Source: Ruditapes philippinarum (lineage: Eukaryota). From it: a DNA stretch of 64,000 nt. A program made the position numbers and the translations under genes. The notes below the pieces were generated by a model. That model worked only from the letters and a program-made list of their open reading frames with translations, did no database searches and was not told the origin of the DNA. Of the stretch, positions 9,645 through 58,924 are shown piece by piece. Within the stretch, counting starts at the first letter, position 1. The number at the start of each line of letters is the position of its first letter. The DNA lies in NCBI RefSeq assembly GCF_026571515.1, contig NW_026867385.1, positions 124,001 to 188,000 of the forward strand. The letters run 5' to 3'.

Positions 9645-12600
9645 ATAAAAGACGGTAACTTCTATAAACGTCTTGGCCAATTTTAAAATAAGTGCTTTTT
9701 AATAATTTAATTTTAGAAGTCTTAATCTTAGTATGGGATTGCCCCATCTTCCTCCCATGGCAGAGGTTGTACGTAGTGACTACCCTGTCATGGGGGATAT
9801 GGTATGCACATAAACACATGTACGGATATAACAATAAGTAATTAAACATCAGCTCCCCCTTTTTTTAAAAGGTTATAAATGAAGTATATGCTCGCCCATA
9901 TGGTCTCTTTCCGGTGGCGAGGGTAAACAAACCCAAACACACACACACATTCCATTGTCATATCGCAACATGCACGAATAAAACTAGAAAAACGAAGGTT
10001 ACTATACTTTAGCCTACTTTAAAATTCAGCTAAACGAATTAAATGTACTTCTCGTTTGTGGCAAGCTGCGGCGTTGTAATAATAATTCTAATTGGTACTG
10101 CAATTTTGAAATATAATCATTAAGTCAATTGATGAAATGTTTGTATCATGCAAATGTCACATTCATTTTCTGTTCCTGCAATTAAGAAACCTTTATGACA
10201 TTATATGTTCTCTTTTCCGTAATACTTGAAACACTAGCTGATTTTATTAAGTCACGTTTAAGTGTTCGTTTGGAATTATTGAAATATCGTCTGCTACAAG
10301 AATATATCTATGACGTAGGTGTTGACATATCGGAGATTCCCGGCAATCCTAATCAAGTTTACAGTCTTTCAATCAGAAAGAAAAATGAATGTTTAGTTTC
10401 CGATAACAAAATGTTTTAGGGTCTTATTCTTCATGAACTGGCTTGATGCTTTTTTGCATATGATGCCTTGCGAAAAAATGTACTTTTTTGCTTTTGCTTG
10501 TCTGTCCGTGGAAATTAGGTCTTTATTGAAAGTACACTGAATTATCTGAAGTAAACATAATAGATTTCCATCTACAAACTTTAAATATTTATTTTATGTG
10601 TTGATCGAAGTGAACTCCAAGAAAAATATGGTGAATAATAAACAGACACGTTTGAAGACAGTAACATAAAAAGATAGGGTTATGGTTTAGACTTTAATGG
10701 TAAGGTCATAATCGAATTTAACTCGTAATTTTAACAAATTATGCACGCAAAAAGTGCAAATTAACTATAAATTATTACTTTGGAACGAAATTAAAAATTA
10801 AAATATAGGTCATCAGTATATATATAATCTGATATAATCTTATTTAATCAGTCAACAAAAACATAAATCAATTTAAACATTTATTGGAGGTATATTAATG
10901 TTTGATACCAGTTACTTTTTCCATGTTTGCAGATTAGGACCTTTCAGAGCAAATACTTTGTTTTTCTGTCTCTGTTTTGGACTTGATGAATTCTATTGCA
11001 CAAACGCCACTGCAACAATCAATACACGTTAAAACCAAACAACAATGTTTCCAATCAGCGCAAAAGCACTGATGACGTCAGTCTACTTGTTTTTCATAAG
11101 AACAACAACTATAGTAAAACATCACGCTGTGAAGTCATCTCGGAATGTGTCTTTTAATTATTGCTGTTATATGTTGATATTGTCCGATTTTTGAAGAATG
11201 GATAATAGTTGGACATTTTAATGACAACGCAAAGTAAAACTATATGAAAACTTCTTTTCTGATATATTTCGTTTTTTATTGATTTTGCAATTTCGAGCTT
11301 TTTGAAAATGTCATTTAAATGTTTCAAGATAAATGATTAATATGTATTTTACCAAAATGTGGATACTGTAGACCATTCCTGAATAGATAACTTTCAAATC
11401 TGCTAATGAGAATTCGAATCCCTCTTTTTTGTTGTTGTTGTTGTTGTTGTTTTGTTTGTAAAAAATGATGGTTATACAAATACAAATTTCAAATTCCTTC
11501 TCTTTCTGTATACTTCCCTGAATGACGGAAGAATTTATACACGGATCAGGTTAAAAGAGCTTTTAATGATACAGAAATATTTCTTTTTCATAGCGATAAA
11601 CAATTTCTTACTTGCATTCATCTCATTATAATTTTTTTTAACATTCATAAAATGTCACGTATTAATTTTATAAAAAATGAGAGATCTGATTATTCTTTTG
11701 AAAATGCATGATTGTCAATTTTATAAAACATTTATAAAAAACATGATTTTGTAGTAAATGCCAATAACTTGTTTATTGTTGGCCTAAAATCAACATTCTT
11801 TCAGAAGTATCACTAATTATAGTATGAAGAGGCAATATGTCACAATTTTATATACATTAAATATTTGAACAGTCACCTGCTGAACTGAAAACAAAAATAT
11901 TTGACTAGCTTTCATTTTTTAAACTGTTTATTTTTTATTATGAAGATTTTAACCTGAAAATTTAAAAGTAGCTGCCCAACAAAGAGAAACATCATTTGTG
12001 GTAAATTGTTACAGAAATACTAAAGAGGGGTGTTTTGCTTTTGTTTGTTTTTTTTCTGTTTTTTTGTTTGTTTGTTTTTTTTTTTAGTATAATAATTTAT
12101 TTTCTTGATATTAGATATATTCGATTTCTGAAGAATGCATTACAGTCTAGCAATTTTACAGAGGTGCACATGAAAAACTATCTAAAAATTTCTTTCATGT
12201 CATTTTACAAGTTTGAGCTATTTCAAATGAAGCTTTTAAGATTTGAAGATAAAGGTTTCAGTATAATTTGCTCAAATTCCTGATTATGTGTATCATAATC
12301 TGCTAGATCTTATTTTTTATGGAGGATGAAGGTCAAAATCCTCCATATCCACTCTCTGAATGATGAAAAAATTATCCAATAAGCAGATCATTAAGCTTTC
12401 ACTATACTGAAAATTTTGCGCTTGAAGGCAATTAATAGTGACTTGCTTATTTTCATCTTAAAATTCCTTCTATCTTAAATGTCACGTACTGATTTTATAA
12501 AATTGAGACATTAAATTTTGTGCTAAAACGCATGGACTTGACCTTTACAAAACGTTAAAATAGAGTGAAATAGATTCCATAAAGAAGTCCAAAAAAGGCA

Positions 12601-14207
12601 AATCGAAATGGTGCAGGCTCGGTTTGATTGGCCCTGTTCATTGACGTTACTAAAAAGTTCAAGCTACGGTCCAAGCCCCTCTAGCACCTGCTTAAGCAGA
12701 ATTCAACATTAAACGTCAAATTGTATTTTTTATCTTTTTAATTATGATTTTGTGAAGGGCAATGACTTGTTTATCTTGAGAAAAATTATTGGAATGAATT
12801 CAAGATATATTGAAAATGTATATCCCTGTTTACGGTATGGTGTGGTATAATATCACTATTACAAATACATTGAACTTTGTAACTTTTAAATAGACCAGCT
12901 TCTGGTTTGTAAAAGAATAAAACTGTCCGCTATCTTCTTGGGGTTATAGGATGTAAATTAAATTTAAGGCGTTTTGGCATTTTAATGACAATTCTAATGA
13001 ATACTACATCAGTGTGGGATTTTGTTAAAAGCAATTTCTCCTCAGAAATGAAGAAATATTTATTTCTTTATCTAGACTGGTCAATCAGTTTTATAACCTT
13101 AATGGTATAAAAACATGTTAGATGGTTTCTACCAAAATTAAATAGCGCTAAATATAAAATAATATGTAACAAAAGGCTGCAAAATATACTCTAAACAGTA
13201 TTTTGACGTTCATACAAGATAATAAATCCCTATAAATGTACTAATTGCCAAAAAGCAACTGAAGAAGAAGACAGTTCAGGTAATTGGTTAACGAGTACCT
13301 TGGAAACTATAAAAATGAATTCATTTCTGGGGCGTAATGGGGCCTTGATACAAAATTCTGTTGTTTTTGTGGTTGTTTTAATTGTTATTGTAGCTTTTTT
13401 TAATATGTCACGTTTGAGTGTTTTCCTGGAATTATTAAAAAAATTCGTCTGCTGACAAGAAATACATCTATGACGTTTATTTAACAAATCGCTGATTCCC
13501 GCAAATTTGTCAAGGCAGTCATATGGGAAAGTAAATTCTTAAGTTCTAGAAGACGTGGCGTAATTTATTTTTCGTGAGGAACTGGCATTAGGCGCTGATG
13601 AGAGTCACACATTACAATTAAGATACTTTCTGTATCACTTATGCTTATCTGTCTTCGAAAATTAGGACTTCTCTGAAAGTATTTTGAGTTTACATATTTA
13701 AAAAGCATTGTCTTTAATTTATGCTTATGAACGTATTGAACTACAAGAAAAATGTACTAAAATATTTTAATAAAATAAAGACCATTCGTTCGTTTGTTTG
13801 TGTGTTTTGTATTTTGTTTTTGTTTTTGGGAGGGTGTTGTTGTTATTTTGTTGTTGTTTGTTTTTGGTGTTTTTTGTTTTTTTGTATTTTTGAATATGGT
13901 AGCATGAAAGAAAAGGTAATGGATTACAATTTCATGATAGGCTACACCGTCTGATTTCACACCTAACATAAGCAAAATGTGATAAAATGCAAATGAAATA
14001 TTAACTTTTAGTTTGGAATGCAATGGGGACACATTGGAAACCTTTATTATCAGTTTGTTCCATGTTAATCGTTTATGATTTAGCGTAGGTACTTTTGTGC
14101 CGAATACTCGTAGTTATATTTTACTTCTAGAGCGAAATACATGTACTTCCATTGACTTCACAAAACAAGAGCATCGACTGTAGTAAAACATTACACTGTG
14201 AATTCTT

Positions 14208-14330
14208 AACGGAACGCCGGTGGCTCTACTCAGGTGCCTGTTTGTGCCAGAGGGGCACCTGAGAATTTCCTGTACCAGTAAAGCTTGAAGATCGCCATAT
14301 GACCTATACTGTGATAATATAACTAAAAGT
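14208..14330 (+). mobile_element. 3' fragment of a tRNA-derived SINE (same family as 48903-49188)
   Basis: ACGGAACGCCGGTGGCTCTACTCAGGTGCC...GAGGGGCACCTG...CCAGTAAAGCTTGAAGATCGCCATATGACCTATACTGTG parallels CAGTAAAGCTGGAGAGTCAC..CATGACCTTTACAGTG at ~49125. It interrupts the array unit. Confidence 0.7.
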
Positions 14331-15536
14331 CTAAGCCAAAGTCTAAAACTGATGCTCCTATCTTCTTTTCTTTAAATTGTATTTGAAATTTCGAGTTTTT
14401 TGGGAGTGTCATTAAAATATTCCAAGATAATTTTTTATGTATTTTACTCTAATATAGATATTGCATACCATTCCTGGCTGGTCTATTTATTAATCTGCTG
14501 TTGAGAATTCGTATGTCCTGTATTTGTTTCTGGAAAATGATGAGAATGCATTAATTAAAAAGTTCAAAAAATCGCCATGTTATCTTTTTGTTTACTTAAC
14601 TGAATGATACTTCTTCCCTAAATGATGAAAAACTTTATCCAAGAATCAGATCATTATTAAGTGGTCTAAACGAACCTTTTCATAACATTTTACTCTAAAA
14701 AGCGATCGTTCCCTGTTTGTATTCATGTCATTATTTCATAACTTTTCTAAAATGTCTGGTACTGATTAATTTGATTAAATTGAGAGATTTAAACGCATGG
14801 CCGTTAATATTTATATAATGTTTACCATTATCTTGTAACGGGCAATGACTTTTGTATCTGAAATAAACTCTTGCCATAAAATCAAGACATATTGAAAATG
14901 AATATCAATACTTTCTGGTATGGTGAGGCATAATTTCGCTTTCATAAAAAACAGTACATAAATGGAACACGTGACCTGTAGACTTTTTAAATTGAACTGT
15001 CTGTTACAAATATTTGTTATTATTACGTGATTTTTTTATTTGTCGTAAGCTTTGGCGTCGTTGTTATAATAATAATAATACTAATTGAATGAGTACAATA
15101 TCAGTTTCATTTTTAAATAGAATCATTCACTCAAATGTCACATATATATATTCTATTCACGCAATTAAGAAACCTCCGATATTAATGACACTTATTTCAC
15201 TTATTATACTTTAACACTAGGTGATTTTATCAAGTTACGTTAAAGTGTCCACTGGCATTGAAATATCGTCTGCTGCAATGCAACATATATCTATGACGTA
15301 GGTTTTGACATATAGCTGATTCCCGCAAATTTGTACCAGAAAATCATTTCCAGACGACCAAATGTAATTTAGCGTTTTCTTAACGAACTGGCATTTTGGT
15401 GCTGATATGTGTCAGTTATTATAATTAAGATACTTTCTGTATCATTTTATTCATTTATGCTTATCTGTCTATTTCAGAAAAGTATTTGAAGTTTCAATAA
15501 TTAATATTACGTTTTACATATTTTATCTTTAATTAA

Positions 15537-16290: not shown

Positions 16291-18289
16291 CATAGACTCC
16301 AGTTATTTGTACAAGTTCAGCCGCCTCTTACGATCACGCAAAGACAAACGGTGGCTGCAATTCTTATGCTTCAACCATTAAAGGCGATCCTCTGCCACAA
16401 TTATTGTAGATAACCAATTACATATTCTATGTTCATGGTATTTTAGCGTTGACATTTCAAACTCATATTTTTGTGATATATTATTACAACAAATTAAGCG
16501 TAAATTGTTTTAACCAAAGAGCATTTTTTCAATAAACACAAAGGCATTGCTGACGTCAATCTCACTTTTTTTTCATAAAAACAACAATTGTAGTAAAACC
16601 CTTGTTAGCCTTTTTTGAGTCTTGTCTTTTGATTGGTATTGTGATAAAATGATATTGTCTGATTTCTTAAGTCGACCATTTCAATGGCAGTGTAAATGTT
16701 AAAGTATTTGGAAAATTCTATTCTGCTATAGTCCTTTTTTTTTTTTATTTTCAAAATTTGAGATTTCTCAGAAAAGTTTTTAGTAAAACACGTATTTTAC
16801 CCCAAAAGTAAATATTTTAAAAAAAATTTCCCGTTTTTCTTAAACGCAACTGAAAATTTGGGTTTCCCTTTATTTTTTATGAAAATGATACACTACAATT
16901 TTAATGTTCAAAAGCCTTCATATTCTGCTACAGCTCTTTAAGCTTAAAATTTAAATCTAGAATAAGATCAATATTAAGTGGTTAACGAGGCTTTTCACAA
17001 TATCAAATGTTTTGCTCTTCTTGTATTTATCTTTTTTATTTCTTAACATTTATAAAATGTCACGTACTGATTTTATAAACATGTGGGATTTTATTTCTTT
17101 TTAAGCACATGAACGTTACAATTATTATAGAATGTTTAACATGATTTTTGTAAAGGGCAATGACTTGTTCATATGTTACTCAACTTTGATTGTCTCCTCA
17201 GCACTCTTGTTAGGGGTATGTGAAAATAAAAGACCAGTTTTTGCTTAACTTTATACCCATTGTTGAATGTACTCTTCATTTATTTCTTAGTTACTATAGA
17301 AAGGGTAGCTGAGTTTACGAAAATCCCGGATTTGCAAACTTATTCCGGAAGCTGTTTGTATAAGATTATAAGCATAAATTCAAGATTTATTTGTTTTAAA
17401 AATATTTTTTACTGTTTATGGTACGGTGTGGCATAATATCGCTAGTTTACATACACATTGAACATGGAAACCATAATCTGTTGACTTTTTTTAAATAGAC
17501 AAGCTTCATTTTTTATGAACTGTCTGTAACCCAGTTCGGGGATTATATGATGAAAAATTTACTTTTGTAAAACTGTGGCGTTGTTATATGTGGCAATATC
17601 ATAGTCTAAATAATTACTTCATCAGTTTTATTTTTAAATATAATTATATATTCACCCGGTAAAATGTTAATACTATGCAAATGTCATATGTTTTGACATA
17701 TACGTATATGATTCCCGCAAATTAGTGCAAGACAATTATATGAAACAGTAAGTTCAAGACGACGAAATGCTATTCAATATTGAATTCTTGGCAAATGGAC
17801 ATTAAGTGCTGATGCGTCTGCATTAGTTGTGCTTTTCTGCCATTGAAAATCAAGTCTTTATTGAAAGAACATGCATTTCAATGTTCAATATTTAAAATTT
17901 CGCTGAACAAAAGTAAATAACGCAGATCATCCCTGAAAAAGTTACTCTCTAAATCGGCTATTAAAAGTTCGAATTTCTCTTTATTGTTCTTAGAAATTAT
18001 GATTTTTTTACAATAATAAAGTTTTATATTTTTCTTCTGTTTATCTCAAACAACGGAATAAAGCTTATCCAAGAATCAGAACATTATTAAGCGGATAACG
18101 AGTATATTTTTCTCTGCTCTTTGCATAAGGTATGTATTTGCAATGAAATACATGACTGTTGATACCTACTTATTTCCAAATTAGAACTGACCAACTTTTA
18201 ATATTTAAGACTGTCTATTTTTTTTTAATTTATAAGTAGCGTTGATGATTTAATGTTGCTATATACCCTCTTGATTTCAAAATAAGGTG

Positions 18290-18928
18290 GATACAAAAGA
18301 GCAGAAATGCAAACGGGTTTCCATATATATCCTTGTGTAAGGCTTTGGCTCATCATCTACACTTTTGACTGAGATTGTTTTTGTTGTTTTTTTCATTATG
18401 ATTTTTATTATTTTGTTGTTGTTTTTTTTAAATCAGACGGATAAATCTAATTTTGAATTTAGCAATCTTTAATTACTGTGACCTTTAAATTTTGGCTGAA
18501 TTAACTTAACTGAAAATAATGAAAACAAAACATTTACTAGCTGATAGCATAAATTGCATCGAAGGTTATTTTTGATATTTTACCCACATCAGACGGTGAA
18601 TATGATAGTTTTTACTAATCTGGACACCAGACCTGTGGCTTTTCTCATGGGGTAAGAGTAAAAGATTTCTTGGAGAAATGATTTAAACGATGACCAATGA
18701 AAATTCTACTTTTGATGCTCATAAACAATAATTCTTATCCAACCTACCTTATCTAATTCCCTTTCCAAAACCTTCTTTGCGGTTTTGAACACTTACCAAT
18801 GTAAATATGGTTTTTAAATGCGAACAAGCCTTAATTGTTGCCACTGGGCATTTAACGTCGCACGGAATCCTCAGCAATATACTTATGCTATTCTTAGACC
18901 ATATCCCTAGTGTTGTAGCAGCAAAACC
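18290..18928 (-). pseudogene. Possible decayed two-exon coding fragment of an unknown gene (paralogs at ~26715-27333, ~34405-35013, ~39975-40591)
   Basis: Minus strand acceptor TCTTTTATAG| then a composite reading GFAATTLGIWSKNSISILLRIPCDRSATTLNAQWQQLRLVRI*KPYLHW*VFKTAKKVLERELDKVGWIRIIVYEHQK*NFHWSSFKSFLQEIFYSYPMRK. Then a ~74-nt GT...TTTTCATTATTTTCAG intron and KLIQPNLKVTVIKDC*IQN*IYPSD...SAKSVEDDEPKTQGYIWKLVFISALLY. All copies have stops and frameshifts; family not recognised. Confidence 0.3.
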
Positions 18929-19789
18929 CTATAAAAGATATTTTAATAACATATATTTATCCTTTTGACTTTCTATTACTTATTAAAATCCAGACATTCT
19001 TTTTCCAAATATAAATTAGTATAATTAATATACTATTCAAAATTTGTTTTCATATTTATTTCCAAAATTAACAAGAAATAATAAATAACTAACTAAACAA
19101 TTCAATAACATGTGATGTTTGTGTATATTTAACATTTATTTATTCCATTAAATTTGTAATGTACATGCATATTATTTTGTGTTTCACTAAATAAGCATGT
19201 AATCACATCACTTCGTATACCTTTATGAGTAAATATTTTGGGTTTGTGATGTTATTATGACGATTTTGTAAATAATCAGTTTTAATGTTCATTTTTTTTT
19301 TATTTTCATGCAGACTTAATATATATAAAAATCTGAACACACAGTTTTCGACCTTAACCTTTAATGGCATTATTTACAAGTGTTATTTAATAATTGCAAC
19401 ACTAACTTATTTTATTAAGTCACGTTTAAGTGTTCGTTGGTTTAACTGAAATGTCGTCTGCAGAGAGAAAAGAATTGTCTATGACGTAGGTTTTGACATA
19501 TTGCTGATTCTCGCAGAATTGATATTCTAATCTTTATAAAGCAATCTTATGGGAAATCTGTGATATTTCAATAGAAATGAAAAATGAATATTCTGTTCCA
19601 GACGACAAAATGTAATTTCAATTTTCTAGATAAACTGACCTGAAGCGTTGGTGCGAGTCAAAAAATCATACTGTTATATCAATAGATAGTTATATTTATA
19701 TTAATGTGTCTCTAAATCAAACAAATGGTCATATGGTAATTCCATACAGCAAAACTGTAAATGATGCAGGTTGTTTCTTTACTAGTTAA

Positions 19790-20427
19790 CCCTTTCCCCC
19801 ATGAGCATATTGTGAAAAATGGCCGTTTTCACTGAAAAGCCTCCTGTTACAAGTTCAAACTGCTATGAAACTATGAAAAATGCTTCAATACTAATCAAAC
19901 TTGGCACAAATGTTGACTGGACCATTGCCTTTGTAACGACATGCTCAGTCTTAAATTTCCTGTTACCATGGCAACGAGGGGACATCTCAAAATTGCCAAA
20001 AATCACTATTTTGCCTCGAATTTTTTCCATCAAAATTTATTTCAAAGTGCTGCAACTTCTCAAGCGATTGAGATAGAGTCAAAGCTTTTCAGCGTGGTTA
20101 CACGTTACATTATGATCGACCTGGGGTCATTTTTTAAGCCTCTCACAAGTCCAAAAGTTTTTCTTGGCGAAATGAGGGGGACTACGCCCCCCCTTCAAAC
20201 CCCCCTAACAGAAGGTGGGCTACATCCCCCCTTCTGGCAACCCCCTGATGTATCGTTTTGGATGGGGGCGGCGCCGAAAAAGTGCTCATTTTTTTTAAGC
20301 AACATTTTCTCAAACGAAAAACATGTGTTTTTGGGCCCAAATAAGGACATTTTTTCACTATTTTAGGCCCTAACAAAGGGGGGAGGGGTCGAAAGTGCGT
20401 TGTTTCGCGTATATATGGGGTAAAGGG
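19790..20427. mobile_element. piggyBac-like non-autonomous element (TTAA flanks, CCCTT...AAGGG 13-bp TIRs), present only in U1
   Basis: TTAA|CCCTTTCCCCCAT ... ATGGGGTAAAGGG|TTAA. Empty single TTAA sites at 28190, 35869 and 41434. Confidence 0.85.
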
Positions 20428-23379: not shown

Positions 23380-23505
23380 TTACAGTATCAATTCCCATTA
23401 TTAGTGTTTTTTTTTCATTATTTTGTCCTATGTTTTACACATTCAATATGTAAAACATAGAACAAAGTAATAAAAATAACATTACCAATACGAAACTTAT
23501 TGTAA
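23380..23505. repeat. ~125-bp imperfect fold-back palindrome (copies 31061-31185, 38695-38820; left arm only at ~44305-44360)
   Basis: TTATTTTGTCCTATGTTTTACA-cattcaata-TGTAAAACATAGAACAAAGTAA: inner arms 20/22 Watson-Crick complementary, with looser pairing out to ~55 bp. Confidence 0.85.
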
Positions 23506-23744
23506 TTCGCAAAATTGTATACCATGAAGCTATTGTCCTTTTTTGTTGAAACGTAAGAAAAATTTAAGAAATTGGTTTAAACATACACATAAATTTAAGA
23601 AACTGGTTTAAACATACACATAAATTTTAATATAAGATATTCCGAAAACATTACATTACATTTTCTCCTAATAAATGATGTCCACATCCTCACAAGCACA
23701 CATCATACATGTATATCAGGTAACGTTGATGGCTGATTTTTGGT

Positions 23745-23995
23745 GGCGACCGAAACGAAATGGTTGAATCCCGCAACTTTACTGAAACACGTTCACCAAT
23801 ACGATGGAGCATTCAAAAAACATGAGTTACTGCTGTCGAGATGAAACTTGAACTTATCCGTGAAAAAAGCAAGTGCCCAGTCCTGCTACGTGAAGAAAAT
23901 GTATCCGCTGCATCAGACAAAACGTGCTACGCGATGATGTCGCTGGGGGAAAATCACGTATGGCTGAACGTCTTGGACATATGCCGCTTTTAAAA
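23745..23995 (-). pseudogene. Tc1/mariner (Tc1-type) transposase remnant, U1
   Basis: Frameshifted minus-strand peptides GICPRRSAIR and F.TD..KFHLDSS match the Tc1 segment RRP..RP.L....R..R.....W..VLFTDESRF around the first catalytic Asp. Confidence 0.75.
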
Positions 23996-24037
23996 TTGCT
24001 TTTTTCCAGAAATTTATTAATACCTAAGTGTATTTTC

Positions 24038-31628: not shown

Positions 31629-32465
31629 ATTGCTTTTTTTCCAGAAATTTATGAATACCTAAATCTATTTTCATTGGTAATATATATAAAATCCTATGAC
31701 GTAATAAAACATTTGCCATTTCGTAAATTGGTGAGTGACAGTAGTGTTTCATTTATTACAATCGCACCGTAAATATAAACTGTCTCATTTTAGATCTCAA
31801 ATATAGAGATATTGATTAACTTTAAACAATAGTTCTAAGCTCATGTTCAAATAGCCCATTTAAGAATCATGAACAAGTTGATATAAATGCATGTAACATA
31901 CATCTTGATGATACATTGCTTTCTATGAAAATGAATACATTTGCTCTTTATCATAAAATATGTATTTTCAATGAAATACATGTTAAACTTTAACCTTTTT
32001 ACCTACTTATTTCCAAAATGGACTTGACCAACTTTCCATATTTGTTTTTTATTGTATAAGTAACGTTGATTATTAAGTGTTGCTTAAGCGTTGCTTTGTA
32101 CCAACTTGATATCAAAATAAGATCGTACAAATCCCATTGGCCATAAATATGGCGGGGTGGATGAGGGAAATTATGTGCCTGGAATTAACGTAGAAACTAG
32201 TTCAGACATGACTACATGATAAAATAGATAACTGTTTGACCGATATTAAATAATTCTGCACAAAAATAAAGGGATAGTGGTGAACTAAATAATTGCTAGT
32301 GATTTTACCGCAATAGTTATGCATATAACTATGCTGATGTATTCACGCCATCTGGCACCGGCTAGATAGGCACTCAATTTTTAACAACTAATGTGCTAGA
32401 ATCAATCATCCCGAAAGACCAGAAGAATATAACAACTCTGGATGTAACATGGGTCTTAACAACTG

Positions 32466-32905
32466 ACCCCGCATTCACAAAGAAAAAATTAGGATCAAAT
32501 GATCCTGATTTTATTTTCATTGTTTTATGACATTAGAAATTATCGTATTTTGCTAGAATTAAATGGTACTTATTCAAAATTTAAAGAATTACTGATTTGC
32601 AAAAACAAACTTATTTTGGGATAAAATCGACGAATTAAAAAACAAAATTAGAAATAATTGTATAAAAACAAAATGAGGATCAGTTTTCGGATCAAGATCA
32701 AAATTTGGATCAACTGTAAATGCCCATATCTTGCAAATATAACAATAAATTTACTCTAAAATTTCATAAACATGCCATTTCAAGTCCAATTTTATCAAGT
32801 TATTATTAAATATTTAATCTATAATGATTAACAATGGAGAATATTTGAGTTTTTAAATTTGATCCTGATTTTGATCCTGATCCTTAAATCTTTGTGAACA
32901 CGGGC
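32466..32905. mobile_element. Harbinger-like MITE, U3 copy
   Basis: Paralog of 24861-25288 at the same position in the unit. Confidence 0.75.
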
Positions 32906-35900
32906 CTACTGTTGTATAAAGTATAAAAATATAACCAAATAAATCATTTGGAAAAAAGATGATCCCTCGGAAGCATTTAAAACAACAAAATTACATGAAA
33001 ATTGAAGACCCGGTTTGGTTAAGTCTGTACATGAGTAATAATGAAAAAGTGCAATATACCTCACGCCTCTACCAACGGCTTGAGCGCTACTCAATTTTTT
33101 TATACTTAATGTCCTGGAATCAATGATCCCGAAATACCAGAAAAATATAACAACACTGAACCCTTACCACGTCGCCAATTATCTTAAATAGGCCGTATCT
33201 TTTATAAGGTTAAAACGATTCATCTCTTTAAAGGTTAATTTAAAACCAACAACATAATAGGGGACAATATAGATCATGATCAGACAGTCTTTAATTGAGG
33301 ACTTCTGAGGTCATCAAGCATGAAATTAACACTTCTTTCTTGGTATCAATGAAGCCGCCTACATCTAGAATATTTTCTTTTGTATGATTTCCTCTTTTTT
33401 GCAATACGATAAGAACATGAGCAAATTTGTTATTCAACAGATACATTTTATTATTATCATTATTGCCACTACAATATAGTTACATGGTATTGCATTTTGT
33501 ATTGACGTTTAATGTAATTAAGGCTTCATGAATACTCAGTATATAATGTTCGCTGCCCTGCAGGATAGCTTTGCTGGGATCTTATGATATGACGAGGACC
33601 GCGTTCTGTAAAAGTCGCTTTGCCATAATGGTCTGCGTTCTCATACTAATAATTTGTATGAATTTATATAAACTCCATTTAGGCTTTAGCACGGTATCAT
33701 ATGACTGATGAATTATCAAAGTAACTGGAAAATACCATTATTGAGAAACATTCATTCTATTGCAGTTCAAAGAAAATTCCAGGTACTTGCAAAGTTTATA
33801 CGAAAGGCCAATATCATTATCAGAAGTTCAAAACCAATCATTTATTTTGAAAAGAGCCAATCAGAAAATATCATTTCATTGATATTAGGTACGGAATGAC
33901 TAATTGTGAGTTCATAATTTCTGTAAATGATTAAAGCGTTGGAGTAAATAATAACTTAGAACACAAAATATTGAACGTTTTTAGACATTTACCTGTCATA
34001 TTATTAGTAAGAACTATCTTAAAGAGATACGCACGATTTCTTAGTCAGTTCTGCGTGATTTCTAAATGAGAACAAATATAGTAAACAAGATCAACAAGGA
34101 AAGGCGACGTTCAATGAACGCAACCCCAAACACGACCCAGCAACAAGAACCGATGGATCAAGTTGTTATGTATTAAGACAGGTCCAATAAAATATCAGAC
34201 CACGATTATTTGTTACACGTTCTATTTCTAGGTTAAAGTTGTGTACAATTGTTTAAGCTTTTATTGTTATCATGTATTTTTTGTAAAATATTGTTCGTGT
34301 AGATATTTCTATTCTTTTTCTTTTTCAATTTTTCAATTATTCAGTATATTTCAATAATAAAGACAGAACCAAATGACAATTACATAAAATCTAAAATAAG
34401 CAAACCTGTAGATTTTGACATACAAAAGAGCAGAAATAAAAACTAGTTTCCATATATACCCTTGTGTTTTTGGCTCATCATCTTCTACGCTTTTGGCTGA
34501 GGCTGGTTTCTTTTTTATTTTATTATTATTATTTCCATTTTTTAATCAGATAAAGCTAATTTTGAATTTAGTAATCTTTGATTACTGTGACCTTTTAAAT
34601 TCCGGGGAAAATAATGAAAACACAACTTTTACTAGCTGATAACATAAATTGCATTAAAGGTTATTTTTAATAGTTTATTACAACTGATGGTGAATAGGTA
34701 GTCATTTATCTGAGGCGTTTCGTGGGGTAAAAGTAAAAGATTTCTTGGAGAAAGGGTAAAATGATGACCAATGAAAATCCTACTTTTGAAACGCATAGAC
34801 AAGCACTCTTATCCAAACTACCTTACCTAATGCTTTCCAAAACCTTCTTTGGGGTTTTGAAAACTTACAAATTTAAATATGGTTTTTAAATGTGTACAAG
34901 TCTTATTTGTTGCCACTGGGCATTTAACGTCGATGCGGACCGATCGCACGGAATCCTCAGCAATATACTTATGCTATTCTTAGAAAAGATCCCTAGTGTT
35001 GTAGCAGCAAAACCCTATAAAAGATATTTAAATAACATATATTTCTCCTTTTGACTTTCTATTACTTATGAAAATCCAGACATACTTTTTCCAAATATGA
35101 ATTAGTATAAGTAATTACTATTCAAAATTTTATTCATATTCATTTCCAAAATTAACAAGAAATAATAAATAAATAACTAAACAATTAAAATAACATGTGA
35201 TATTTGTGTATATTTAACATTTATTTATTCCATTATATTTGTAATGTACATGCATATTATTTTGTGTTTCACTAAATAAGCATGTAATCACATCACTTCG
35301 TATACCTTTATGAGTAAATATTTTGGGTTTGTGATGTTATTATGACGATTTTGTAAATAATTAGTTTCAAGGTTCATTTTTTTTATTTTCATGCAGACTT
35401 AATATATATAAAAATCTGAACACACAGTTTTCGACCTTAACCTTTAATGGCATGATTTACAAGTGTTATTTAATAATTGCAACACTAACTTATTTTATTA
35501 AGTCACGTTTAAGTGTTCGTTGGATTAACTGAAATGTCGTCTGCAGAGAGAAAAGAATTGTCTATGACGTAGGTTTTGACATATTGCTGATTCTCGCAGA
35601 ATTGATATTCCAATCTTTATAAAGCAATCTTATGGGAAATCTGTGATATTTCAATAGAAATGAAAAATGAATATTCTGTTCCAGACGACAAAATGTAATT
35701 TCAATTTTCTAGATAAACTGACCTGAAGCGTTGGTGCGAGTCAAAAATTCATACTGTTATATCAATAGATAGTTATATTTATATTAATGTGTCTCTAAAT
35801 CAAACAAATGGTCATATGGTAATTCCATACAGCAAAACTGTAAATGATGCAGGTTGTTTCTTTACTAGTTAAGGACGGCTTATTGTTCTAAAGCAAGGAA

Positions 35901-38900
35901 GAACCAAAATCAACCTACTCGTTCAACCATTGTCTATGAATACTCCGTACAGACACGCATTGAACGCCAATGGTTAAAAAATTCCGCGCGTATTTATTGA
36001 AAAGGGGTGGATTATAATGAAATTATTTTCCTGTTACAGTGATAATAAATAAGGCTATGATTAGAAAAAGTCTTATCAGTCAATAAATAACACATTAATC
36101 GACGAAAAGTATTTAGAACACATAATTGTACAAAAGTATACGTAATCGATATGATGGCCGTCTAGAATTGCGTTGATACAGACACATTAAAACATTAACA
36201 TGTTCACATTTGTATAACTGTTTTTCTCTGTTGTGTAACACTTCACTGTGCAATATAAACATTCGTACTTTAGGAGTTTTTATGACCTGAATGAATTTTT
36301 GACTGCACATACACCACTGCAGCGATCGATTAGCGTATTAACCAATAACCAATACTTTCAATCAGCGCAAAGGCACTGATGACGTAAGTCCACTTGTTTT
36401 TTAATAAGTACACCAGCTCCAATAAACATGTCACGCTCTTTTGCGTTCTAGAAATTCCACTTACGAATATTTAGACGTTCTGATGAAATAAAAGTATGAT
36501 AGAAAAGATCAGAACAGCAATTTCTTTGTTTTTATATTCTACTGGAGAGAATTGTATAAGAAATTATTTCATTTTACAAATATGAAATGATTTAAAAAAG
36601 AAATTTCAGCAAAGTATTCAACTGCTGTTGAAGCATGTTTCTTCATCTATTTAACAAATATCACTACTTTGTACTTAAGATTGATGTTAATCCGATAAAA
36701 GAAAACCTAATCCAAATTTATACCCTGAAAGTAGGAAAGTAATGACCAAGGGGAGAAAGCAATATTCAACGTTACCTGTCGATTTATGTTAACCAAAATA
36801 GAAATAATTCACTTACCTTTAAAATGTAAATAAGTATAAAGAAATATTTACAAACAGACATTTAAAAAACATAATTGGGGTGAATACCGTGCCTGGCACT
36901 TAATTACCACCACATATACACTTTTACAACATGACCGCCGACGCCTCCTGTCCTACTGATCTACTTCAATTTTTATAATACAAAACAAAATGTTTGTAAA
37001 AGTCTAGTAAGAAGATACCCCTAGAGAGCAATTAAAATCTTTCAGACTTAAAGTTGCTAGAGCTTGTTTAATTTACAATAGTTCAACATACACGCTTTCT
37101 CCCACCTCCTCCTAAAATATTTAAAATAACACTTATAAATCATCTTTTTTTTTAAAGTTTTGTAAACATCTTATGCATTAACCATATAAGGTTATTTTAA
37201 ACAATTATGATATGAATAAACATACATGTTAATCATTAAAGACGCTGACATTTACTGGAAGCAATGTCTGGCTGAGATAAATGTACCTGTTGTAGAAAAA
37301 AAACAATATCCACAATTTTCGTTTAAATGTCATCAGCAGATACATATTTCTTAATAAATTTTAATTTCTAAAAAGCAAATGGCAAATGTTATTAATTTCG
37401 TGTCAATTGATGAAACAAATAATCTGAATATTAAAGTAAATAAAGAAATGATAACTCAAAGACTTTGTTTTGAAGGTCATCATACATATAAAAAAATGTG
37501 GGTTTAACGTTAGGGCATTTTGTCTTGTTTTTACATCGTTATAAGCAATCATATAATGTTACCAAAGGTTAATGTTGCAGACAAAGACAACCTTTATCTA
37601 CAATTATTATCTGCCATTTGTATCGATTTACTCTTTTGACTGGATGAATAAGTGGTAAAAAGATACCAAAGACCTTTTTCTGATCTTTTAATCTGTTTAC
37701 TTAGAAATTTGTATCACCTTAATAAAGATGAATGCTAAGATATTGTCATTAAACAAAATATCTCGGGCAAGGTTACTGCTCTTGATATTGTTATTTTTTT
37801 TCTTTCTTATGTTCATGGAATGTCACGTACTGCCACAAAATGATAAACTGCATTATTTGATAATTATTGATAGCACATTACCAAGATTTTATCAAACATT
37901 TAACATTTAAAATCAAAAGGACAATGACTTGTTTACATCTCAAAAGATCACTGCTCAACCGCCTAGATACATTAAAAATAAAAAGAAAGAAAAATTATAT
38001 GACTTTAAGTCACGTTTGGGTGATCATTGGAATTCTGAAATGTCATCTGCTGAGAAAGAAGAAATGGCTATGACGTAGGTTTTGACATATTGCTGATTTC
38101 TGGAAAAGAAAACCTTATTCCAATCTGTACAAAGCAATCAATCTTATCATCAATAATATTGTATTGTACTAATTGTAATGAAGAATACAATGATGTCAGT
38201 GAACCTTTTTAGAGAAACGTTAAATGTGTTGTGCTTTAGTCTTAAGATTTCAAAACTTTAGTATGATACTGAGGGCTTTCTTGAACAAAATTGTCAGTCA
38301 TGCAAAATTTTTCTTTAAATTTTTTTATATTTAGAAAAGTAACAAGAATTTATATCTGATATTTTTGTAAAATTTTATTTATTTTACAAAAAAACTAAAA
38401 CAACGCCTAACTTCATTTGTTTTAATTGTATACACAATAATATAACGTTTTTGTAGTAAAAGACCCTTTCTCAGTGAGCAATATTTTTTACCTGTGTAGT
38501 CTGACCAGGCCCTTGAACTTTTGGCTGCACATCATTTTGTATTTCGTTATTGAAATCCTTTGATTTTTTAAATGACTTTACTAAATTCAAAGCAGAACAA
38601 GCATTAAAAATAGCTAAGCAGATTCAGTGTAAACCCTCAAAACATCTGAAACATGATTTATGTACATGTTCAATTGACAGATACACGATATTTGTTTACA
38701 GAATCAATTCGCATAATTAGTGTTATTTTCATTATTTTGTCCAATGTGTTACACATTCAATATGTAAAACATAGAACAAAGTAATGAAAATAGCGTTAAT
38801 AGTACGAAACGTATTGTGATTCGCAATATTTCATACCATGAAACAATTGTCCTTTTTTGTTGAAACGTACGAAAAATTTAAGAAATTCGTTTAGTTTTAA

Positions 38901-38999
38901 GATAAGATATTCCGAAAACGTTACATTTTCTCATATTAATTGATGTCCATATCCTCACAATCACACATCACATATCAGGTAACCTTAATGGCTGATTTT

Positions 39000-39240
39000 T
39001 GGTGGCGACCGAAAGGAAATAGCTGCATCACTGAAACATGTTCACCAATACGATGGAGCATCCAAAAACGTGAGTTACTGCTGTCGAGATGATACTTGAA
39101 CTTATCCGAGAAAAGAACACATTCCAAGTCCTGCTACGTGAAGAAAATGTATCCTCTGCATCAGGCAAAACGTGCTACACGATGATGTCGCTGGGGAAAA
39201 TTACGTATGGCTGAATGTATCGGACATATGCCGCTTTTGA
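39000..39240 (-). pseudogene. Tc1 transposase remnant, U3
   Basis: Paralog of 23745-23995. Confidence 0.75.
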
Positions 39241-41500
39241 AATTGCTTTTTTCCAGAAATTTATAAATACCTATGTCTATATCATCGGTAATATATATAA
39301 AATCCTATGACGTAATAAAACATTTGCCATTTCGTAAATTGGTGAGTGACAGAAGTGTTTCATTTATTACAATTGCTACATTGATATTAGGTACGGAATG
39401 ACTAATTGTGAGTTCATAATTTCTGTAAATGATTAAAGCGTTGGAGTAAATAATAACTTAGAACATAAAAGATTGAAAGTTTTTAGACATTCATCTTAAA
39501 GAGATACGCATGATTTCTTAGTCAGTTCTGCGTGATTTCTAATTGAGAACAAAATATAGTAAACAAGATCAACAAGGAAAGGCGACGTTCAATGAACGCA
39601 ACCCCAACACGACTCAGCAACAAGAACCGATGGAACAAGTTGTTATTTATTAAAACAGGTCCAATAAAATATCAGACCACGATTATTTGTTACACGTTCT
39701 ATTTCTAGGTTAAAGTTGTGTACAATTGTTTAAGCTTTTATTGTTTTCACTTAGCATATCATGTATTTTTTGTAAAATATTGTTCGTGTAGATATTTCTA
39801 TTCTTTTTCTTTTTTAAATTTTCAATTATAAGATTTTTAATGTGTAAAATTCTTACAGATAACTTTTAGCAGGAGAAAAATCACACAAAAGACCTGAAAC
39901 AAGTGTGTAATCTGAGTATCTCTAATAAAAAAGACAGAACCAAATGAAATTTACATAAAATTTAAAATAAGCAAACCTGTAGATTTTGACATACAAAAGA
40001 GCAGAAATGAAAACTAGTTTCCATATATTTTTGTTTTTGACTCATCATCTTCTACGCTTTTGGCTGAGGCTGGTTTGTTTTTTATTTTTTATTTTTTTCC
40101 ATTTTTTAATCAGATAAAGCTAATTTTGAATTTTGTAATCTTTGATTACTGTGACCTTTTAAATTCCGGGGAAAATAAAGAAAACACAAATTTTACTAGC
40201 TGATAACATAAATTGCATTAAAGGTTATTTTTAATAGTTTATTACAACTGATGGTGAATAGGTAGTCATTTATCTGATCGCGTGACAAGTGGCGTTCCAT
40301 GGGGTAAAAGTAAAAGATTTCTTGGAGAAAGGGTAAAATGATGACCAATAAAAATCCTTGTTTTGATACGCATAGACAAGCACTCTTATCCAAACTACCT
40401 TACCTAATGCCTTCCAAAACCTTCTTTGCGGTTTTGAAAACTTACAAATTTAAATATGGTTTTTAAATGTGTACAAGCCTTTATTGTTGCAACTGGGCAT
40501 TTAACGTCGTTGCGGACCGATCGCACGGAGTCCTCAGCAATATACTTATGCTATTCTTAGACCAGATCCCTAGTGTTGTAGCAGCAAAATCCTATAAAAG
40601 ATATTTAAATAACATATATTTATCCTTTTGACTTTCTATTACTTATCAAAATCCAGACATTCTTTTTCCAAATATGAATTAGTATAAGTAATAACTATTC
40701 AAAATTTGTTTTCATATTCATTTCCAAAATTAACAAGAAATAGTAAATAACTAAACAATTAAATAACATGTGATATTTGTGTATATTTAACATTTATTTA
40801 TTCCATTATATTTGTAATGTATATGCATATTATTTTGTGTTTCACTAAATAAGCATGTAATCACATCACTTTGTATACCTTTATGAGTAACTAGTTTGGG
40901 TTTGTGTTATTATGACGATTTTGTAAATAATTTGTTTTAATGTTCATTTTTTCCATGCAGACTTAATATATATAAAAATCTGAACACATATTTTTTCAAC
41001 CTTAACCTTTAATGGCATTATTTACAAGTGTTATTTAATAATTGCAACACGAACTTATTTCATTAAGTCACGTTTAAGTGTTCGTTGGATTAACTGAAAT
41101 GTCGTCTGCAGAGAGAAAAGAATTGTCTATGACGTAGGTTTTGACATATTGCTGATTCTCGCATAATTGATATTCCAATCTTTATAAAGCAATCTTATGG
41201 GAAATCTGTGATATTTCAATCGAAATGAAAAATGAATATTCTGTTCCAGACGACAAAATGTAATTTCAATTTTCTAGATAAACTGACCTGAAGCGTTGGT
41301 GCGAGTCAAAAATTCATACTGTTATATCAATAGATAGTTATATTTATATTAATGTGTCTCTAAATCAAACAAATGGTTATATGGTAATTCCATACAGCAA
41401 AGCTGTAAATGATGCAGGTTGTTTCTTTACTGGTTAAGGACGGCTTATTGTTCTAAAACAAGGAAGAACCCAAATCAACCTACTCTTTCAACCATTGTCT

Positions 41501-41586
41501 ATGAATACTCCGTACAGACAAGCATGGAACGCCAATGGTTAAAATGAATACTCCGTACAGACAAGCATGGAACGCCAATGGTTAAA
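41501..41586. repeat. ~43-bp tandem duplication private to U4
   Basis: ATGAATACTCCGTACAGACAAGCATGGAACGCCAATGGTTAAA x2; single copy in U2 and U3. Confidence 0.9.
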
Positions 41587-44500
41587 AGATTCCTCGCGTA
41601 TTTATTGAAAAGGGATTGATTATAATGAAATTATTTTCCTGTAACAGTGATAATAAATACGGTAATGATTAGAAGAAGTCTCATCAGTCAATAAATAACA
41701 CATTAATAGCCTTAATAATGTGTATGAAAAATATTTAGAACACATAATTGTACAAAAGAATACGTAACCGATATGTTGGCTGTCTAGAATTGCGTTTATA
41801 CAGACACATTAAAACATTAACGTGTTCCCATTTGTATAATGTTTTTCTCTGCTGCGTAACACTACACTGTACAATATAAACATTCGTACTTTAGGAGTTT
41901 TTATGACCTGAATGAATTCCATTGACTGCACGTACACCGCTGCAGCGATCGATACGCGTACCAATACTTTCAATCAGCGCAAAAAGGACTGCATGATGAC
42001 GTAAGTCCACTAGTTTTTTTAATAAGTACACCAGCTCCAATAAACATGTCACGCTCTTTTGCGTTCTAGAAATTCCACTTACGAATGTTTAGACGTTCTG
42101 ATAAAATAAAAGTATGATTGAAAAGATCAGACCAGCAATTTCTTTGTTTTTATATTCTACTGGAGAGAGTTGTATAAGAAGTTATTTTATTTTACAAATA
42201 TGAAATAATTTTAAAAAAAATTTCAGCAAAGTACTCAACTGCTGTTGAAGCATGTTTCTTCATATATTTTGCTATGATTTCTAATATTAACAAATATCAC
42301 TACTTTGTACTTTACTTTGATGTTAATCCGATAAAAGAAAACCTAATCCAAATTTATACCCTGAAAGTAGGAAAGTAATGACCAAGGGGAGAAAGCAATA
42401 TTCAACGTTACCTGTCGATTTTATGTTAACCAAAATAAAAATAATTCACTTACCTATAAAATGTAAATAAGTATAAAGAAATATTTACAAACAGACATTT
42501 AAAAAACATAATTGGGGTGAAGACCGTGCCCGGCACTTAATTACCACCACATACACTTTTTACAACATGACCGCCGACGCCTCCTGTTCTACTGATCTAC
42601 TTCAATTTTTATAATACAAAACAAAATGTCTGTAAAAGTCTAGTAAGAAGATACCCCTAGAGAGCAATTAAAATCTTTCAGACTTAAAGTTGCTAGAGCT
42701 TGTTTAATAAACAATAGTTCAACATACACGCTTTCTCCCACCTCCTCCTAAAATATTTAAAATAACACTTGTAAATCATACTTTTTTAAGTTTTGAAAAC
42801 ATCTTATGCATTAACCATATAAGGTGATTTTAAACAATTATGATATGAATAAACAGACATGTTAATCATTAAAGACGCTGACATTTACTGGAAGCAATGT
42901 CTGGCTGAGATAAATGTACCTGTTGTAGAAAAAACAATATCCACAATTTTCGTTTAAATGTCATAAGAAGATATATATTTCTTAATAAATTTTAATTTCT
43001 AAAAGGCAAATGGCAAATGTTATTAATTTCATGTCAATTGATGAAACAAATAATCTGAATATTAAAATAAATAAAGAAATGATAACTCAAAGACTTTGTT
43101 TTGAAGGTCATCATACATATAAAAAAATGTGGGCTTAAGGTTAGTGCATTTTGTCTTGTTTACATCGTTAATAAGCAATCATATAATGTTACTAAAGGTT
43201 AATGTTGCAGACAAAGACAACCTTTATCTACAATTATTATCTACCATTTGTATCGATTTACTCTTTTGGCTGGATAAATAAATGGTAAATAAATTCCAAA
43301 GACCTTTTTCTGATCTTCTAACCTGTTTACTTAGAAATTTGTATAATAAATAAAAGTCGCATTTTTTTCCAAGAAGTAGCTCGTCTCATCTTAAGGTGAA
43401 TGCTAAGATATTGTCATTAAACAAAAACAATCTCGAGCAAGGTTACTGCTCTTGATGTCTTTATTTTTTTCTTTCTTATGTTCATGGAATGTTACGTACT
43501 GCCACAAAATGATAACACTGCATTATTTGATACTAATTGATAACACATTACCAACAAATAACATTAAAATCAAAAGGACAATGACTTGTTTATATCTCAA
43601 AAGATCATTGCTCAACCGCCTAGATACATTTAAAATAAAAAGAAAGAAAATATGATATTACAAGTCACGTTTGGGTGATCATTGGAATTCTGAAATGTCA
43701 TCTGCTGAGTTAAAAGAAATGGCTATGACGTAGGTTTTGACATATTGCTGATTTCTGGAAAAAAAAATATTCCAATCTGTACAAAGCAATCAATCTTATC
43801 ATCAATAAGATTGTATTGTACTAATTGTAATACAAAATACAACGATGTCGATGAAACATTAAATGTGTTATGCTTTAGACTTTAGATTTCAAACATTTGA
43901 GTATAATACTGAGGGCTATCTTGAACACAACTGTTAGTCATGTAAAGATTTTTTCTTTTAAAATGTTTTGTTGATTAGAAAAGTAACAAGAATTTATATC
44001 TGATATTTTTGTAAAAGTTAAAGTATTTTACCAAAACTGAAAAAATGCCTTATTTCAATTCTATAAATGTATACTACTTAACATTTTTTTGCGTTAAAAG
44101 CCCCTTCCCCAAGAAGCAATATTCTTACCCGTGCAGTCTGACCAGGCCCTTGAACTTATATATTTTTGTATTTTGTTATTGAAATCCTTTTACTTTTTCA
44201 AATTGACTTTACCAAATACAAAGCAGGACAAATCCTAAACAGCAGATAAAAAGTAAACGGAGGAATTGATATGTACAATTGACCGATAAATAATATTTGT
44301 TTCTAGTATAAGTTTCGTATTATTTATATTCTTTTCATTGTTCTGTTCTATGTTTTACTCATTACACAACATTTGACACAATGAGTTTTTTTTTGTTGTA
44401 ACGTTAGAAAAATGTAAAAATTGTTTTGGATATACACATAAGTTTTAGTATAAAATATTCTGAAAAGGTATATAAAAAAGTTTTCAGCAAGGTTTTTAAG

Positions 44501-44639
44501 TGACCTTTTGTTAACATAAGCTCATTTTCAATTGAAATGGCGTTAGTATCGCTTCAGATAGAGATTAGTGTTCACATACATTCTCTGAATTAAGTTCGTA
44601 TAATCGATGCATTTACAACGAGCGACAAAAATACTGAAA

Positions 44640-44925
44640 TACATGCTTGGCGAATACTTGTACCATCGTCACATATCGTTAAACGACGAAACGCAATTGT
44701 TGAATCCCACAACTTCATTGAAACACGTTTACCAATACGATGGTACACTTTTAAACAACTGTTGCTACTGTCGAGATGAAACCTGAACTCATCCGTGAAA
44801 AAGAACACGTGCCCATTCCTGCTTCATGGAAAAATGTAACGCCTACAGCGGGCAAAACGTGCTTAATGATTATCTGGCTAGGAATAAGCACATATGGATG
44901 AACGTCTTGGACGTATGCCTCCTTT
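44640..44925 (-). pseudogene. Tc1 transposase remnant, U4 (best preserved)
   Basis: ORF 44590-44808 reads FFTDEFRFHLDSSNSCLKVYHRIGKR, matching Tc1-type LFTDESRF.L...DGR.RV.RR.GER. Confidence 0.85.
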
Positions 44926-46286
44926 AAAAAAAATCCGGAAATTTATGATTATCAAGGTCTATCTACATTGGAAATACATATAAGATCCGAATATGACGTA
45001 ATAAAATATTTGCCATTTCGTAAATTGGTGAGTGGCAGAAATGTTTCATTAATTACAATTGTACCATAAACTCTCTCATTTTTATTCTCCAATACCTACC
45101 GATTGAGCTATGGGGTAAAGTATCTTCTTTTTTTAACTTTGAACAGTAGGTCTGAGTTCGTGTTCCATTAGCCCATTTGAGAATCATGAACAAATTGATA
45201 TAAATGTATGTAACATATATTTTGATAAAATATTGCTTTCTATGAAAAGGATTGGCTTTGATAGTCTCCTGGGACAATGTCACCACTGCAAACAATGTGT
45301 GCTTTCTGTTTATCAGATCATTTAGTCAGACAGTCAAAAACTATCCCTTATCAAAATTTATTAATTGTATCAGGTCTTCCAGAAGGATTGGGTAGATATT
45401 TTAGGCGACTGGCGCTTAATGATATAACATATATATTATAATAAAAGTACTTTAAAAGAAAATATCACAGGATTGTTACTGTTCTCTATTAAGGATGGTT
45501 GCTAGAGAATATTTGTTTGTTTTTCATGTATTTGTTATCGAAGATATCATTTTACATTTATTGTATGTTAGCTGAGGCCCACATTGAAGATTGGGAGCCT
45601 CATTAAATAAAGGTGTCACATTCTCATTTTTTTATTGAAGAGCATATTCTGAACAGTTTTGCTATTTGCTGCAATGTCTCCATCTTGCAGCTTTAACGGG
45701 AAAATATTTTAAAGCGCTATTCATCTATTCAAAAGTGTGCATGAATTTTATCTATTACCAATACAAGGAAGCAGATTTCTTTATCAAGCCCAAGGTGTCT
45801 GATATAGCAAGATTACAACATACAAACGTACAAAATATATTATTACAATCCTTGGATATTTCTGTATCTACATTAGAAAAGTTAACAGTTCTCCAAGCAA
45901 ATAAGTTAATATCATCATGAGTAGACCAAGTAAATCATGGGCATTGGTCATTTGTATTAAGTTCAAGATTTATTTTTTGAGAACAACTTGAGAAAATAGA
46001 GCTATCAAATGGAAAAACTCGCCATGACAAACATTATGAAATATTACAAGATACTTTTGAAAGGATGTATGAGAATGTATTCATACATGACTAAATGCAG
46101 ATATTCAGATATTTCATTAAATATTTAAACAAAATGAATATGTATTTTTTTCAATGCGATGGAGTTATTTGTGAGTACGTAAAATCGTAAACATTGGTAA
46201 ATGTTAATATTAACAGAAGCCTTTTTCAGTTAGATAAAAGCAGTTCTAACAAGTTTTTGCAAGATTTACTAGTTTATCTATCTTTA

Positions 46287-58862: not shown

Positions 58863-58924
58863 ACCTACCAAAGAGCTCGTCCTTCCCATTAGCTGTTTGA
58901 AAAGTCAAACTTGGTTCTTACTTG
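58863..58924 (+). other. Candidate 5' UTR exon
   Basis: Pyrimidine tract TTTCATTTCCTCTGTCCGTCTCTACAG| and donor TTG|GTATGT. Confidence 0.35.

What the first reader, a model, noticed from the sequence alone, without database searches (positions are those of the whole stretch)
10060..45250. Two-tier (higher-order) tandem array with no intact gene
Seen: an old 2-3 kb unit (module, CCAAT/CRE block, ATGTCACGTACTG, GG.CAATGACTTGTTT, next module) occurs about four times at 10-18 kb. The same landmark order sits inside each ~7.6-kb unit (e.g. 27831, 28685, 30191, 30290, 30380), which was then quadruplicated. The young array begins (18108) and ends (~45250) at the same register. Inference: the locus was amplified in at least two separate episodes, unusual for inert DNA and suggesting a dosage-sensitive non-coding function or a recombination-prone locus.
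Basis: partly seen in the sequence, partly recalled or inferred. Interest (0 to 1): 0.7.

Follow-up and report, generated by a model that had tools for sequence, protein, structure and literature searches.

The report
Amplified enhancer-like array upstream of midnolin
A clam genome carries a repeatedly re-duplicated stretch of non-coding DNA upstream of its midnolin gene, and its 14 copies keep a short motif-rich block that likely acts as a signal-responsive enhancer.

Summary
The nested array is real and larger than reported. An old 1.8-3.2 kb unit with a conserved ~110-bp module was amplified in at least three layers: four old units at 10-18 kb, four units of 5.9-7.6 kb at 18.1-45.25 kb (87-95% alike, mosaic, older at both edges), and a missed array of three 11-15 kb units that ends at window 12,852. 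There are 14 modules, found only on this contig. Contigs from two other public runs hold unit-specific variants side by side, so this is not haplotypes assembled in tandem. No coding signal, Rfam family or conserved hairpin was found. The module core is more conserved than neutral simulations give (0 of 141 reach it), and what it keeps are CRE-like (TGACGT) and E-box-like (GTCACGT) words. The next protein-coding gene found downstream (31 kb) is midnolin-like; its promoter has GTCACGTGA and TGACGTCA. Best reading: unequal crossing-over multiplied a likely CRE-type enhancer, probably serving midnolin (0.45). Neutral duplication with gene conversion is a close rival (0.3). No expression or chromatin evidence was obtained.

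The parts
1..12852 (+).
10183..10469 (+). Module A3 (GTCACGT 10,249; TCGTCTGC 10,287; CTATGACGTAG 10,308)
10988..11137 (+). CCAAT/CRE block, full TGACGTCA at 11,073
13362..13613 (+). Module of old unit O1
15166..15419 (+). Module of old unit O2
16490..16624 (+). CRE block of O2, full TGACGTCA at 16,551
17625..17826 (+). Degenerate module of truncated old unit O3 (E-box and CRE words lost)
18094..24290 (+). Unit U1 (6.2 kb): modules at 19,417 and 22,712; 49-bp deletion removes CCAAT/CRE; lacks the 2.2-kb spacer
19786..20431 (.). U1-specific TTAA-flanked inverted-repeat element (piggyBac-like MITE; label recalled), dispersed in the genome
   Evidence: ends; 41 matches at ~94-95% from 40 scored of 4,311 candidates
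24291..31926 (+). Unit U2 (7.6 kb): modules at 27,829 and 30,378; CRE block 28,714; ATGTCACG 30,190; GGACAATGAC 30,291
31927..39376 (+). Unit U3 (7.45 kb): modules at 35,500 and 38,007; CRE block 36,378
39379..45251 (+). Unit U4 (5.9 kb): modules at 41,065 and 43,662; CRE block 41,995; last ~0.9 kb more diverged (about 80% where alignable)

Best explanation
This is a real, locus-specific array of non-coding DNA, likely built by repeated unequal crossing-over, whose repeated module likely works as a CRE/E-box-type signal-responsive enhancer, most likely for the midnolin-like gene 31 kb downstream. Shown: nested copies at three depths, mosaic exchange among the inner copies with older edges, a module conserved above a neutral model, the motif words, and the identity of the flanking genes. 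Inferred: an ancestral ~2 kb segment with the module was duplicated in tandem; the copies then seeded misaligned crossovers that copied two-module blocks (5.9-7.6 kb) and one-module blocks (11-15 kb); CREB/ATF-type and bHLH factors would bind the kept words and loop to the midnolin promoter, which carries the same two motif types. Selection probably preserves the motifs per copy; selection on copy number is not shown.
For: Structure. Unique to this contig: 12 of 12 DNA matches, 12 of 12 exact 22-mer matches with 0 for the reversed control. Mosaicism; older edges. Real multi-copy: runs X1 and X3 both hold a contig with U1's 49-bp deletion and U1 alleles; in X3 it lies beside a U2/U3-like contig at depth 50.8 vs 137.5, while module B collapses to one contig (depth 172 and 225, 0-2 differences in 272 bp); 30 of 36 listed variants checked equal an allele of U1, U3 or U4. 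Conservation: best 80-column window 60% invariant over four old lineages vs at most 55% in 141 matched neutral simulations; invariant runs of 10 (TCTATGACGT) and 8 (TCGTCTGC) vs at most 8. A3 is 96-100% like A1 from module to CRE block but 70-93% in other alignable windows. TGACGT sites: 23 in 31 kb with young copies collapsed vs 3.9 per 10 kb in 28 CpG-matched background windows; GTCACGT 11 vs 1.25 per 10 kb. Midnolin: 100% match to a protein named midnolin-like, first coding exon at contig 200,196; promoter has GTCACGTGA and TTGACGTCAA about 420 bp upstream. Mammalian MIDN is induced with immediate-early kinetics (PMC10617673, passages).
Against: No chromatin, reporter or RNA evidence. Among U1-U4 only module B is low in variation (3.0% vs 11.9% of columns; 6% of windows are as low); module C, the CRE block and the other two landmarks are not. 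U1 has lost its CCAAT/CRE block and O3 its motifs. The module CRE is a half-site (TGACGTAG), and U1-U4 hold no full TGACGTCA. Full CRE words are enriched about 15-fold over a dinucleotide model in unrelated parts of the contig too, and the collapsed count still includes old-tier copies. The neutral simulation has no rate variation or gene conversion. Module and promoter share motif types but no homology (no nhmmer hit there). A CpG-undepleted state is common (28 of 54 background windows). Other promoter-like CRE clusters (contig 96.2 kb, window 51.7 kb and 58.3-58.7 kb) and KLHL21 on the left are alternative targets. Motif names are recalled, not tested by a binding model.
Confidence: 0.45

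Rival explanations
1. Neutral, recombination-prone intergenic DNA: one duplication seeded further unequal crossovers, and old gene-conversion tracts, not selection, explain why the module looks conserved.
For: Conversion or crossover mosaicism is demonstrated. The 1-kb tract of 96-100% identity in the A array is longer than a motif cluster. Most landmarks show no reduced divergence among U1-U4. Motif loss is tolerated (U1, O3). Other small tandem duplications lie nearby (46,287-47,603).
Against: Conservation across the old lineages is spiky and centred on CRE- and E-box-like words, with variable spacers between them. CRE hexamers are kept in 6 of 6 old-tier pairwise comparisons (not independent, local alignments only) vs 9-21% for other hexamers. 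The module region is the most homogeneous part in both younger arrays. No comparable multi-kb direct array occurs elsewhere in 458 kb of the contig.
Confidence: 0.3
2. The units are promoters or exons of an unannotated non-coding transcript (lncRNA or small-RNA host), for example one starting at the double-CRE/TATA element at contig 96.2 kb and running through the array.
For: Double TGACGTCA followed by TATAAAA at contig 96,182-96,220, on the + strand; fixed order and orientation of all landmarks; an AT-rich ~65-nt hairpin near 23,405-23,481 with weaker copies in U2 and U3.
Against: No Rfam match at gathering score; the module does not fold conservedly (z from -4.2 to +1.5, only 1 of 14 copies below -2); no splice signal shared by all module lineages in the alignment (read by eye).
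Confidence: 0.15
3. Assembly artefact: haplotypes or noisy reads placed in tandem.
For: Homopolymer-rich, error-like stretches at contig 93-95, 97-99 and 124-126 kb, which affect the upstream A array; no listed contig spans even the 1.1-kb test stretch.
Against: Four units 5-13% apart cannot be two haplotypes; no such noisy stretch inside 10,060-45,250 apart from the GC-rich MITE; U1-type and other types coexist at about 1:2.7 in another run.
Confidence: 0.04
4. Decayed tandem protein-coding family; the landmarks are old exons.
For: A 145-codon open frame crosses one upstream module copy; GC-rich blocks exist at about 23.7-24.0 kb and contig 100.8 kb.
Against: Indels of 2 and 4 bases inside the module between lineages; no Pfam hit; no convincing synonymous bias; no parent copy elsewhere in the genome.
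Confidence: 0.04

Closest known systems
Multi-allelic tandem CNV of an enhancer at bovine GC (12 kb; PMC8328317, abstract read)
   Same: Non-coding unit of about 10 kb multiplied in tandem near a gene, proposed to raise expression through enhancer dosage.
   Different: That is one recent layer with eQTL and functional-genomics support; this is three nested layers with copies 55-95% alike and no functional data.
Tandem enhancer duplications in chicken (PMC13696352, PMC13639972; search listing only)
   Same: Tandem duplication of non-coding DNA beside a candidate target gene.
   Different: Single recent duplications tied to a phenotype; no old nested tiers as far as the listing shows.
Multiple CREB-bound enhancers of immediate-early genes (PMC12795507, passages; c-Fos example recalled)
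   Same: Several CRE-bearing elements spread over the non-coding region next to a stimulus-inducible gene.
   Different: Those enhancers are unrelated in sequence (recalled); here they would be paralogous copies of one module.
Higher-order repeats of satellite DNA such as alpha satellite (recalled)
   Same: Diverged monomers grouped into a larger unit that is amplified and homogenised, with diverged edges.
   Different: Kilobase-scale unique-sequence monomers, only 3-4 copies per tier, one locus, irregular unit length; not a satellite.

Membership tests
Tandem segmental duplication under concerted evolution | Head-to-tail copies >1 kb of locus-specific sequence | tested here: met
Tandem segmental duplication under concerted evolution | Mosaic ancestry among copies, edges older than interior | tested here: met
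Tandem segmental duplication under concerted evolution | Multi-copy in independent individuals | tested here: met
   exact copy number not measurable from contig depth
CRE-type inducible enhancer cluster | CRE-like words enriched and conserved | tested here: met
   about 1.9-fold over background, kept across old lineages; mostly half-sites
CRE-type inducible enhancer cluster | Purifying selection on each element among recent copies | tested here: inconclusive
   module B and module A low in divergence, module C and CRE block not
CRE-type inducible enhancer cluster | Open chromatin, factor binding, reporter activity, contact with target promoter | not testable with these tools
   no ATAC, ChIP or reporter data
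miRNA or structured RNA cluster | Conserved hairpin in each module | tested here: not met
Tandem protein-coding gene family | Frame-preserving, synonymously biased exons | tested here: not met
Transposon-derived tandem array | Unit sequence dispersed elsewhere in the genome | tested here: not met
   four unit segments and a 22-mer match only this contig; the inserted MITE, as a control, is dispersed
Satellite higher-order repeat | Short monomers in high copy number with regular period | tested here: not met

The most novel reading that the evidence does not exclude
A single CRE/E-box enhancer was multiplied 14-fold by three nested rounds of tandem duplication into a paralogous super-enhancer for midnolin, and its copy number still varies among clams and tunes how fast stress-induced transcription factors are cleared.
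Probability: 0.2. Interest if true: 0.6.

Novelty: new member of a known kind. Interest (0 to 1): 0.33.

Why it matters
If the module is an enhancer, the locus is a natural series of 14 paralogous enhancers of graded age (about 55% to 99% alike) that shows which motifs and spacings are needed, and it gives a testable copy-number candidate for midnolin regulation in a farmed, stress-exposed bivalve. Midnolin regulation in this clam genus was not found in the held literature (0 papers; none of 25 listed mention midnolin). If neutral, it is an ordinary but well-resolved example of concerted evolution in intergenic DNA.

Tried and rejected
No RNA holder listed for 10,000-19,900 (not evidence). RNA run X8 gave 0 reads on 27,740-28,860 with no positive control, so no test; run X6, labelled RNA-seq, gave 84 reads but their loose ends fall at the three GATC sites and complete GATCGATC junctions, so I treat it as Hi-C DNA and not as expression. 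A whole-unit read lay was not obtained, so transcription of the rest of the array is open. miRNA idea for the invariant 22-mer: rejected by folding. Rfam E-value hits were far below gathering scores. Weak Pfam hits on short ORFs (DUF7718, MobL, CBP_BcsR) taken as chance. A transmembrane-looking 40-aa ORF at contig 100.86 kb: no Pfam hit and no copy outside the array. CpG-undepleted domain as a special feature: rejected, it is common. Homology between module and midnolin promoter: none. Earlier findings: 3 look-ups, nothing. No congener genome is held, so synteny was not tested.
Full report
Setting. The window is G000:C15872:124001-188000 of a 1.41-Gb, about 30% GC animal genome. Flanking genes place it in a heterodont clam: a BTB-BACK-kelch ORF at contig 82.7-84.4 kb is closest to bivalve KLHL21/24-like proteins, and an exon at 239.5 kb is 100% identical to a protein its source names midnolin-like of Ruditapes philippinarum. 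Midnolin's first coding exon (ubiquitin-like domain) starts at contig 200,196 on the + strand, 31 kb downstream of the array. I found no other protein-coding gene between the two, but the search relied on ORF filters and 54 Pfam-scanned sequences and can miss short exons.

Observation. A profile of the module finds 14 copies at contig 106-168 kb, 12 in the window; 11 window copies keep both GT(C/T)ACGT and CTATGACGT, and the one near 17.7 kb is degenerate. The array from 18,094 to 45,251 opens and closes at one register and has four units of 6.2, 7.6, 7.45 and 5.9 kb, 87.3-95.4% identical by substitutions. Each holds two modules. Four unit segments and an exact 22-mer match this contig only, whereas the 646-bp TTAA-flanked element inserted in U1 is dispersed.

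Is it real? Contigs of runs X1 and X3 (two studies; kind not on record, whole-genome sized) were laid on 27,740-28,860. Both contain a contig with U1's 49-bp deletion and U1 alleles. In X3 it lies beside a U2/U3-like contig at depth 50.8 against 137.5, and in both runs module B collapses into one contig with 0-2 differences in 272 bp at depth 172 and 225. The tool warns that depth is not copy number, so I use this only as evidence for more than two copies. Of the 40 variant rows shown (44 more were not shown) I checked 36, leaving out 4 that come from cross-mapping of other module types; 30 equal an allele of U1, U3 or U4 and 6 match none, so these are probably other individuals. Both runs also show a module flank absent from 458 kb of this contig, a hint of structural variation. 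Error-like homopolymer stretches occur at contig 93-95, 97-99 and 124-126 kb, but inside the finding only the GC-rich MITE scores high; divergence figures for the upstream array may be inflated.

How it arose (partly shown, partly inferred). Informative sites among U1-U4 are clustered: 23 runs against 36.6 expected, 0 of 5000 shuffles (65 sites). The first 200 bp of U1 and the tail of U4 are 82.5% and 79.8% like their inner counterparts, which are 94-96% alike. This is the pattern expected when unequal crossing-over and conversion homogenise the interior of an older duplication. With old units about 55% alike overall, at least three depths of duplication are recorded.

What the module is not. 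No Rfam family; no conserved hairpin; indels of 2 and 4 bases between lineages; no Pfam or convincing codon-position signal.

What it keeps. Across four old lineages the longest invariant runs are TCTATGACGT and TCGTCTGC, with ACGTT, AGTGT and GATTC nearby. The best 80-column window is 60% invariant; 0 of 141 neutral simulations matched for overall invariance (of 180 run) reach that, the maximum being 55%. The model lacks rate variation and conversion. In the upstream array A3 matches A1 at 96-100% from the module to the CRE block and at 70-93% in other alignable windows. Among U1-U4 module B is low in variation (3.0% vs 11.9%, matched by 6% of windows), but module C (8.4%), the CRE block (9.1%) and the two short landmarks (14-15%) are not. 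With young copies collapsed, TGACGT sites number 23 in 31 kb against 3.9 per 10 kb (range 1-9) in 28 CpG-matched windows; GTCACGT 11 against 1.25 per 10 kb. The names CRE and E-box for these words are recalled. About 420 bp upstream of the midnolin start codon lie GTCACGTGA, TTGACGTCAA and TTGACAATA: the same motif types in the same order as the module, without sequence homology. In mammals MIDN mRNA is induced with immediate-early kinetics (PMC10617673, passages), and CREB is among the factors acting at such genes' promoters and enhancers (PMC12795507, passages). Neither paper concerns molluscs; supplements were not consulted.

Expression. No evidence either way: X8 gave 0 reads without a positive control, and X6 carries Hi-C-type GATCGATC junctions. 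Only 1.1 kb was laid.

Verdict. A genuine three-layer tandem array of non-coding DNA. The most likely function is a multiplied CRE/E-box enhancer for midnolin (0.45); neutral amplification with conversion is 0.3, a repeated non-coding transcript 0.15, artefact and decayed gene family 0.04 each. Tandem multiplication of enhancers is a known kind (PMC8328317, abstract); the nesting and age range are unusual but function is unproven. Interest 0.33.

Noticed in passing
run X6: Labelled RNA-seq but shows ligation junctions at every GATC site in the stretch; looks like a Hi-C library and should not be used as expression evidence.
   Followed up: partly
L007:2182-2220 (contig 96.2 kb): Two full TGACGTCA words followed by TATAAAA on the + strand, just left of the upstream array; promoter-like, no gene assigned.
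   Followed up: no
window 58,300-58,930: CCAAT, TGACGTCA and reverse CCAAT cluster followed by a possible splice donor; could be an upstream non-coding first exon or another transcript.
   Followed up: no
window 23,405-23,481 (weaker copies near 31.1 and 38.7 kb): AT-rich hairpin with a stem of about 30 bp; weak Rfam miRNA-model hit far below gathering score; largely lost in U4.
   Followed up: partly
window 46,287-47,603: Separate 655-bp tandem duplication, 95% identical.
   Followed up: no
window 300-1,900; contig 93-95 and 97-99 kb; 3' part of the KLHL21 ORF near 84 kb: Homopolymer-rich, error-like sequence; the kelch ORF's apparent break near its end may be an assembly error.
   Followed up: partly
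L004:8599-8904 (-): Geminin-like exon (Pfam E 3e-4, below curated cut-off); death-domain exon at L003:5119-5628 (+).
   Followed up: no
window 12,557-12,727, 55,148-55,269, 55,465-55,651: A short repeat of about 170 bp inserted in old unit A3 and present twice near 55 kb.
   Followed up: no
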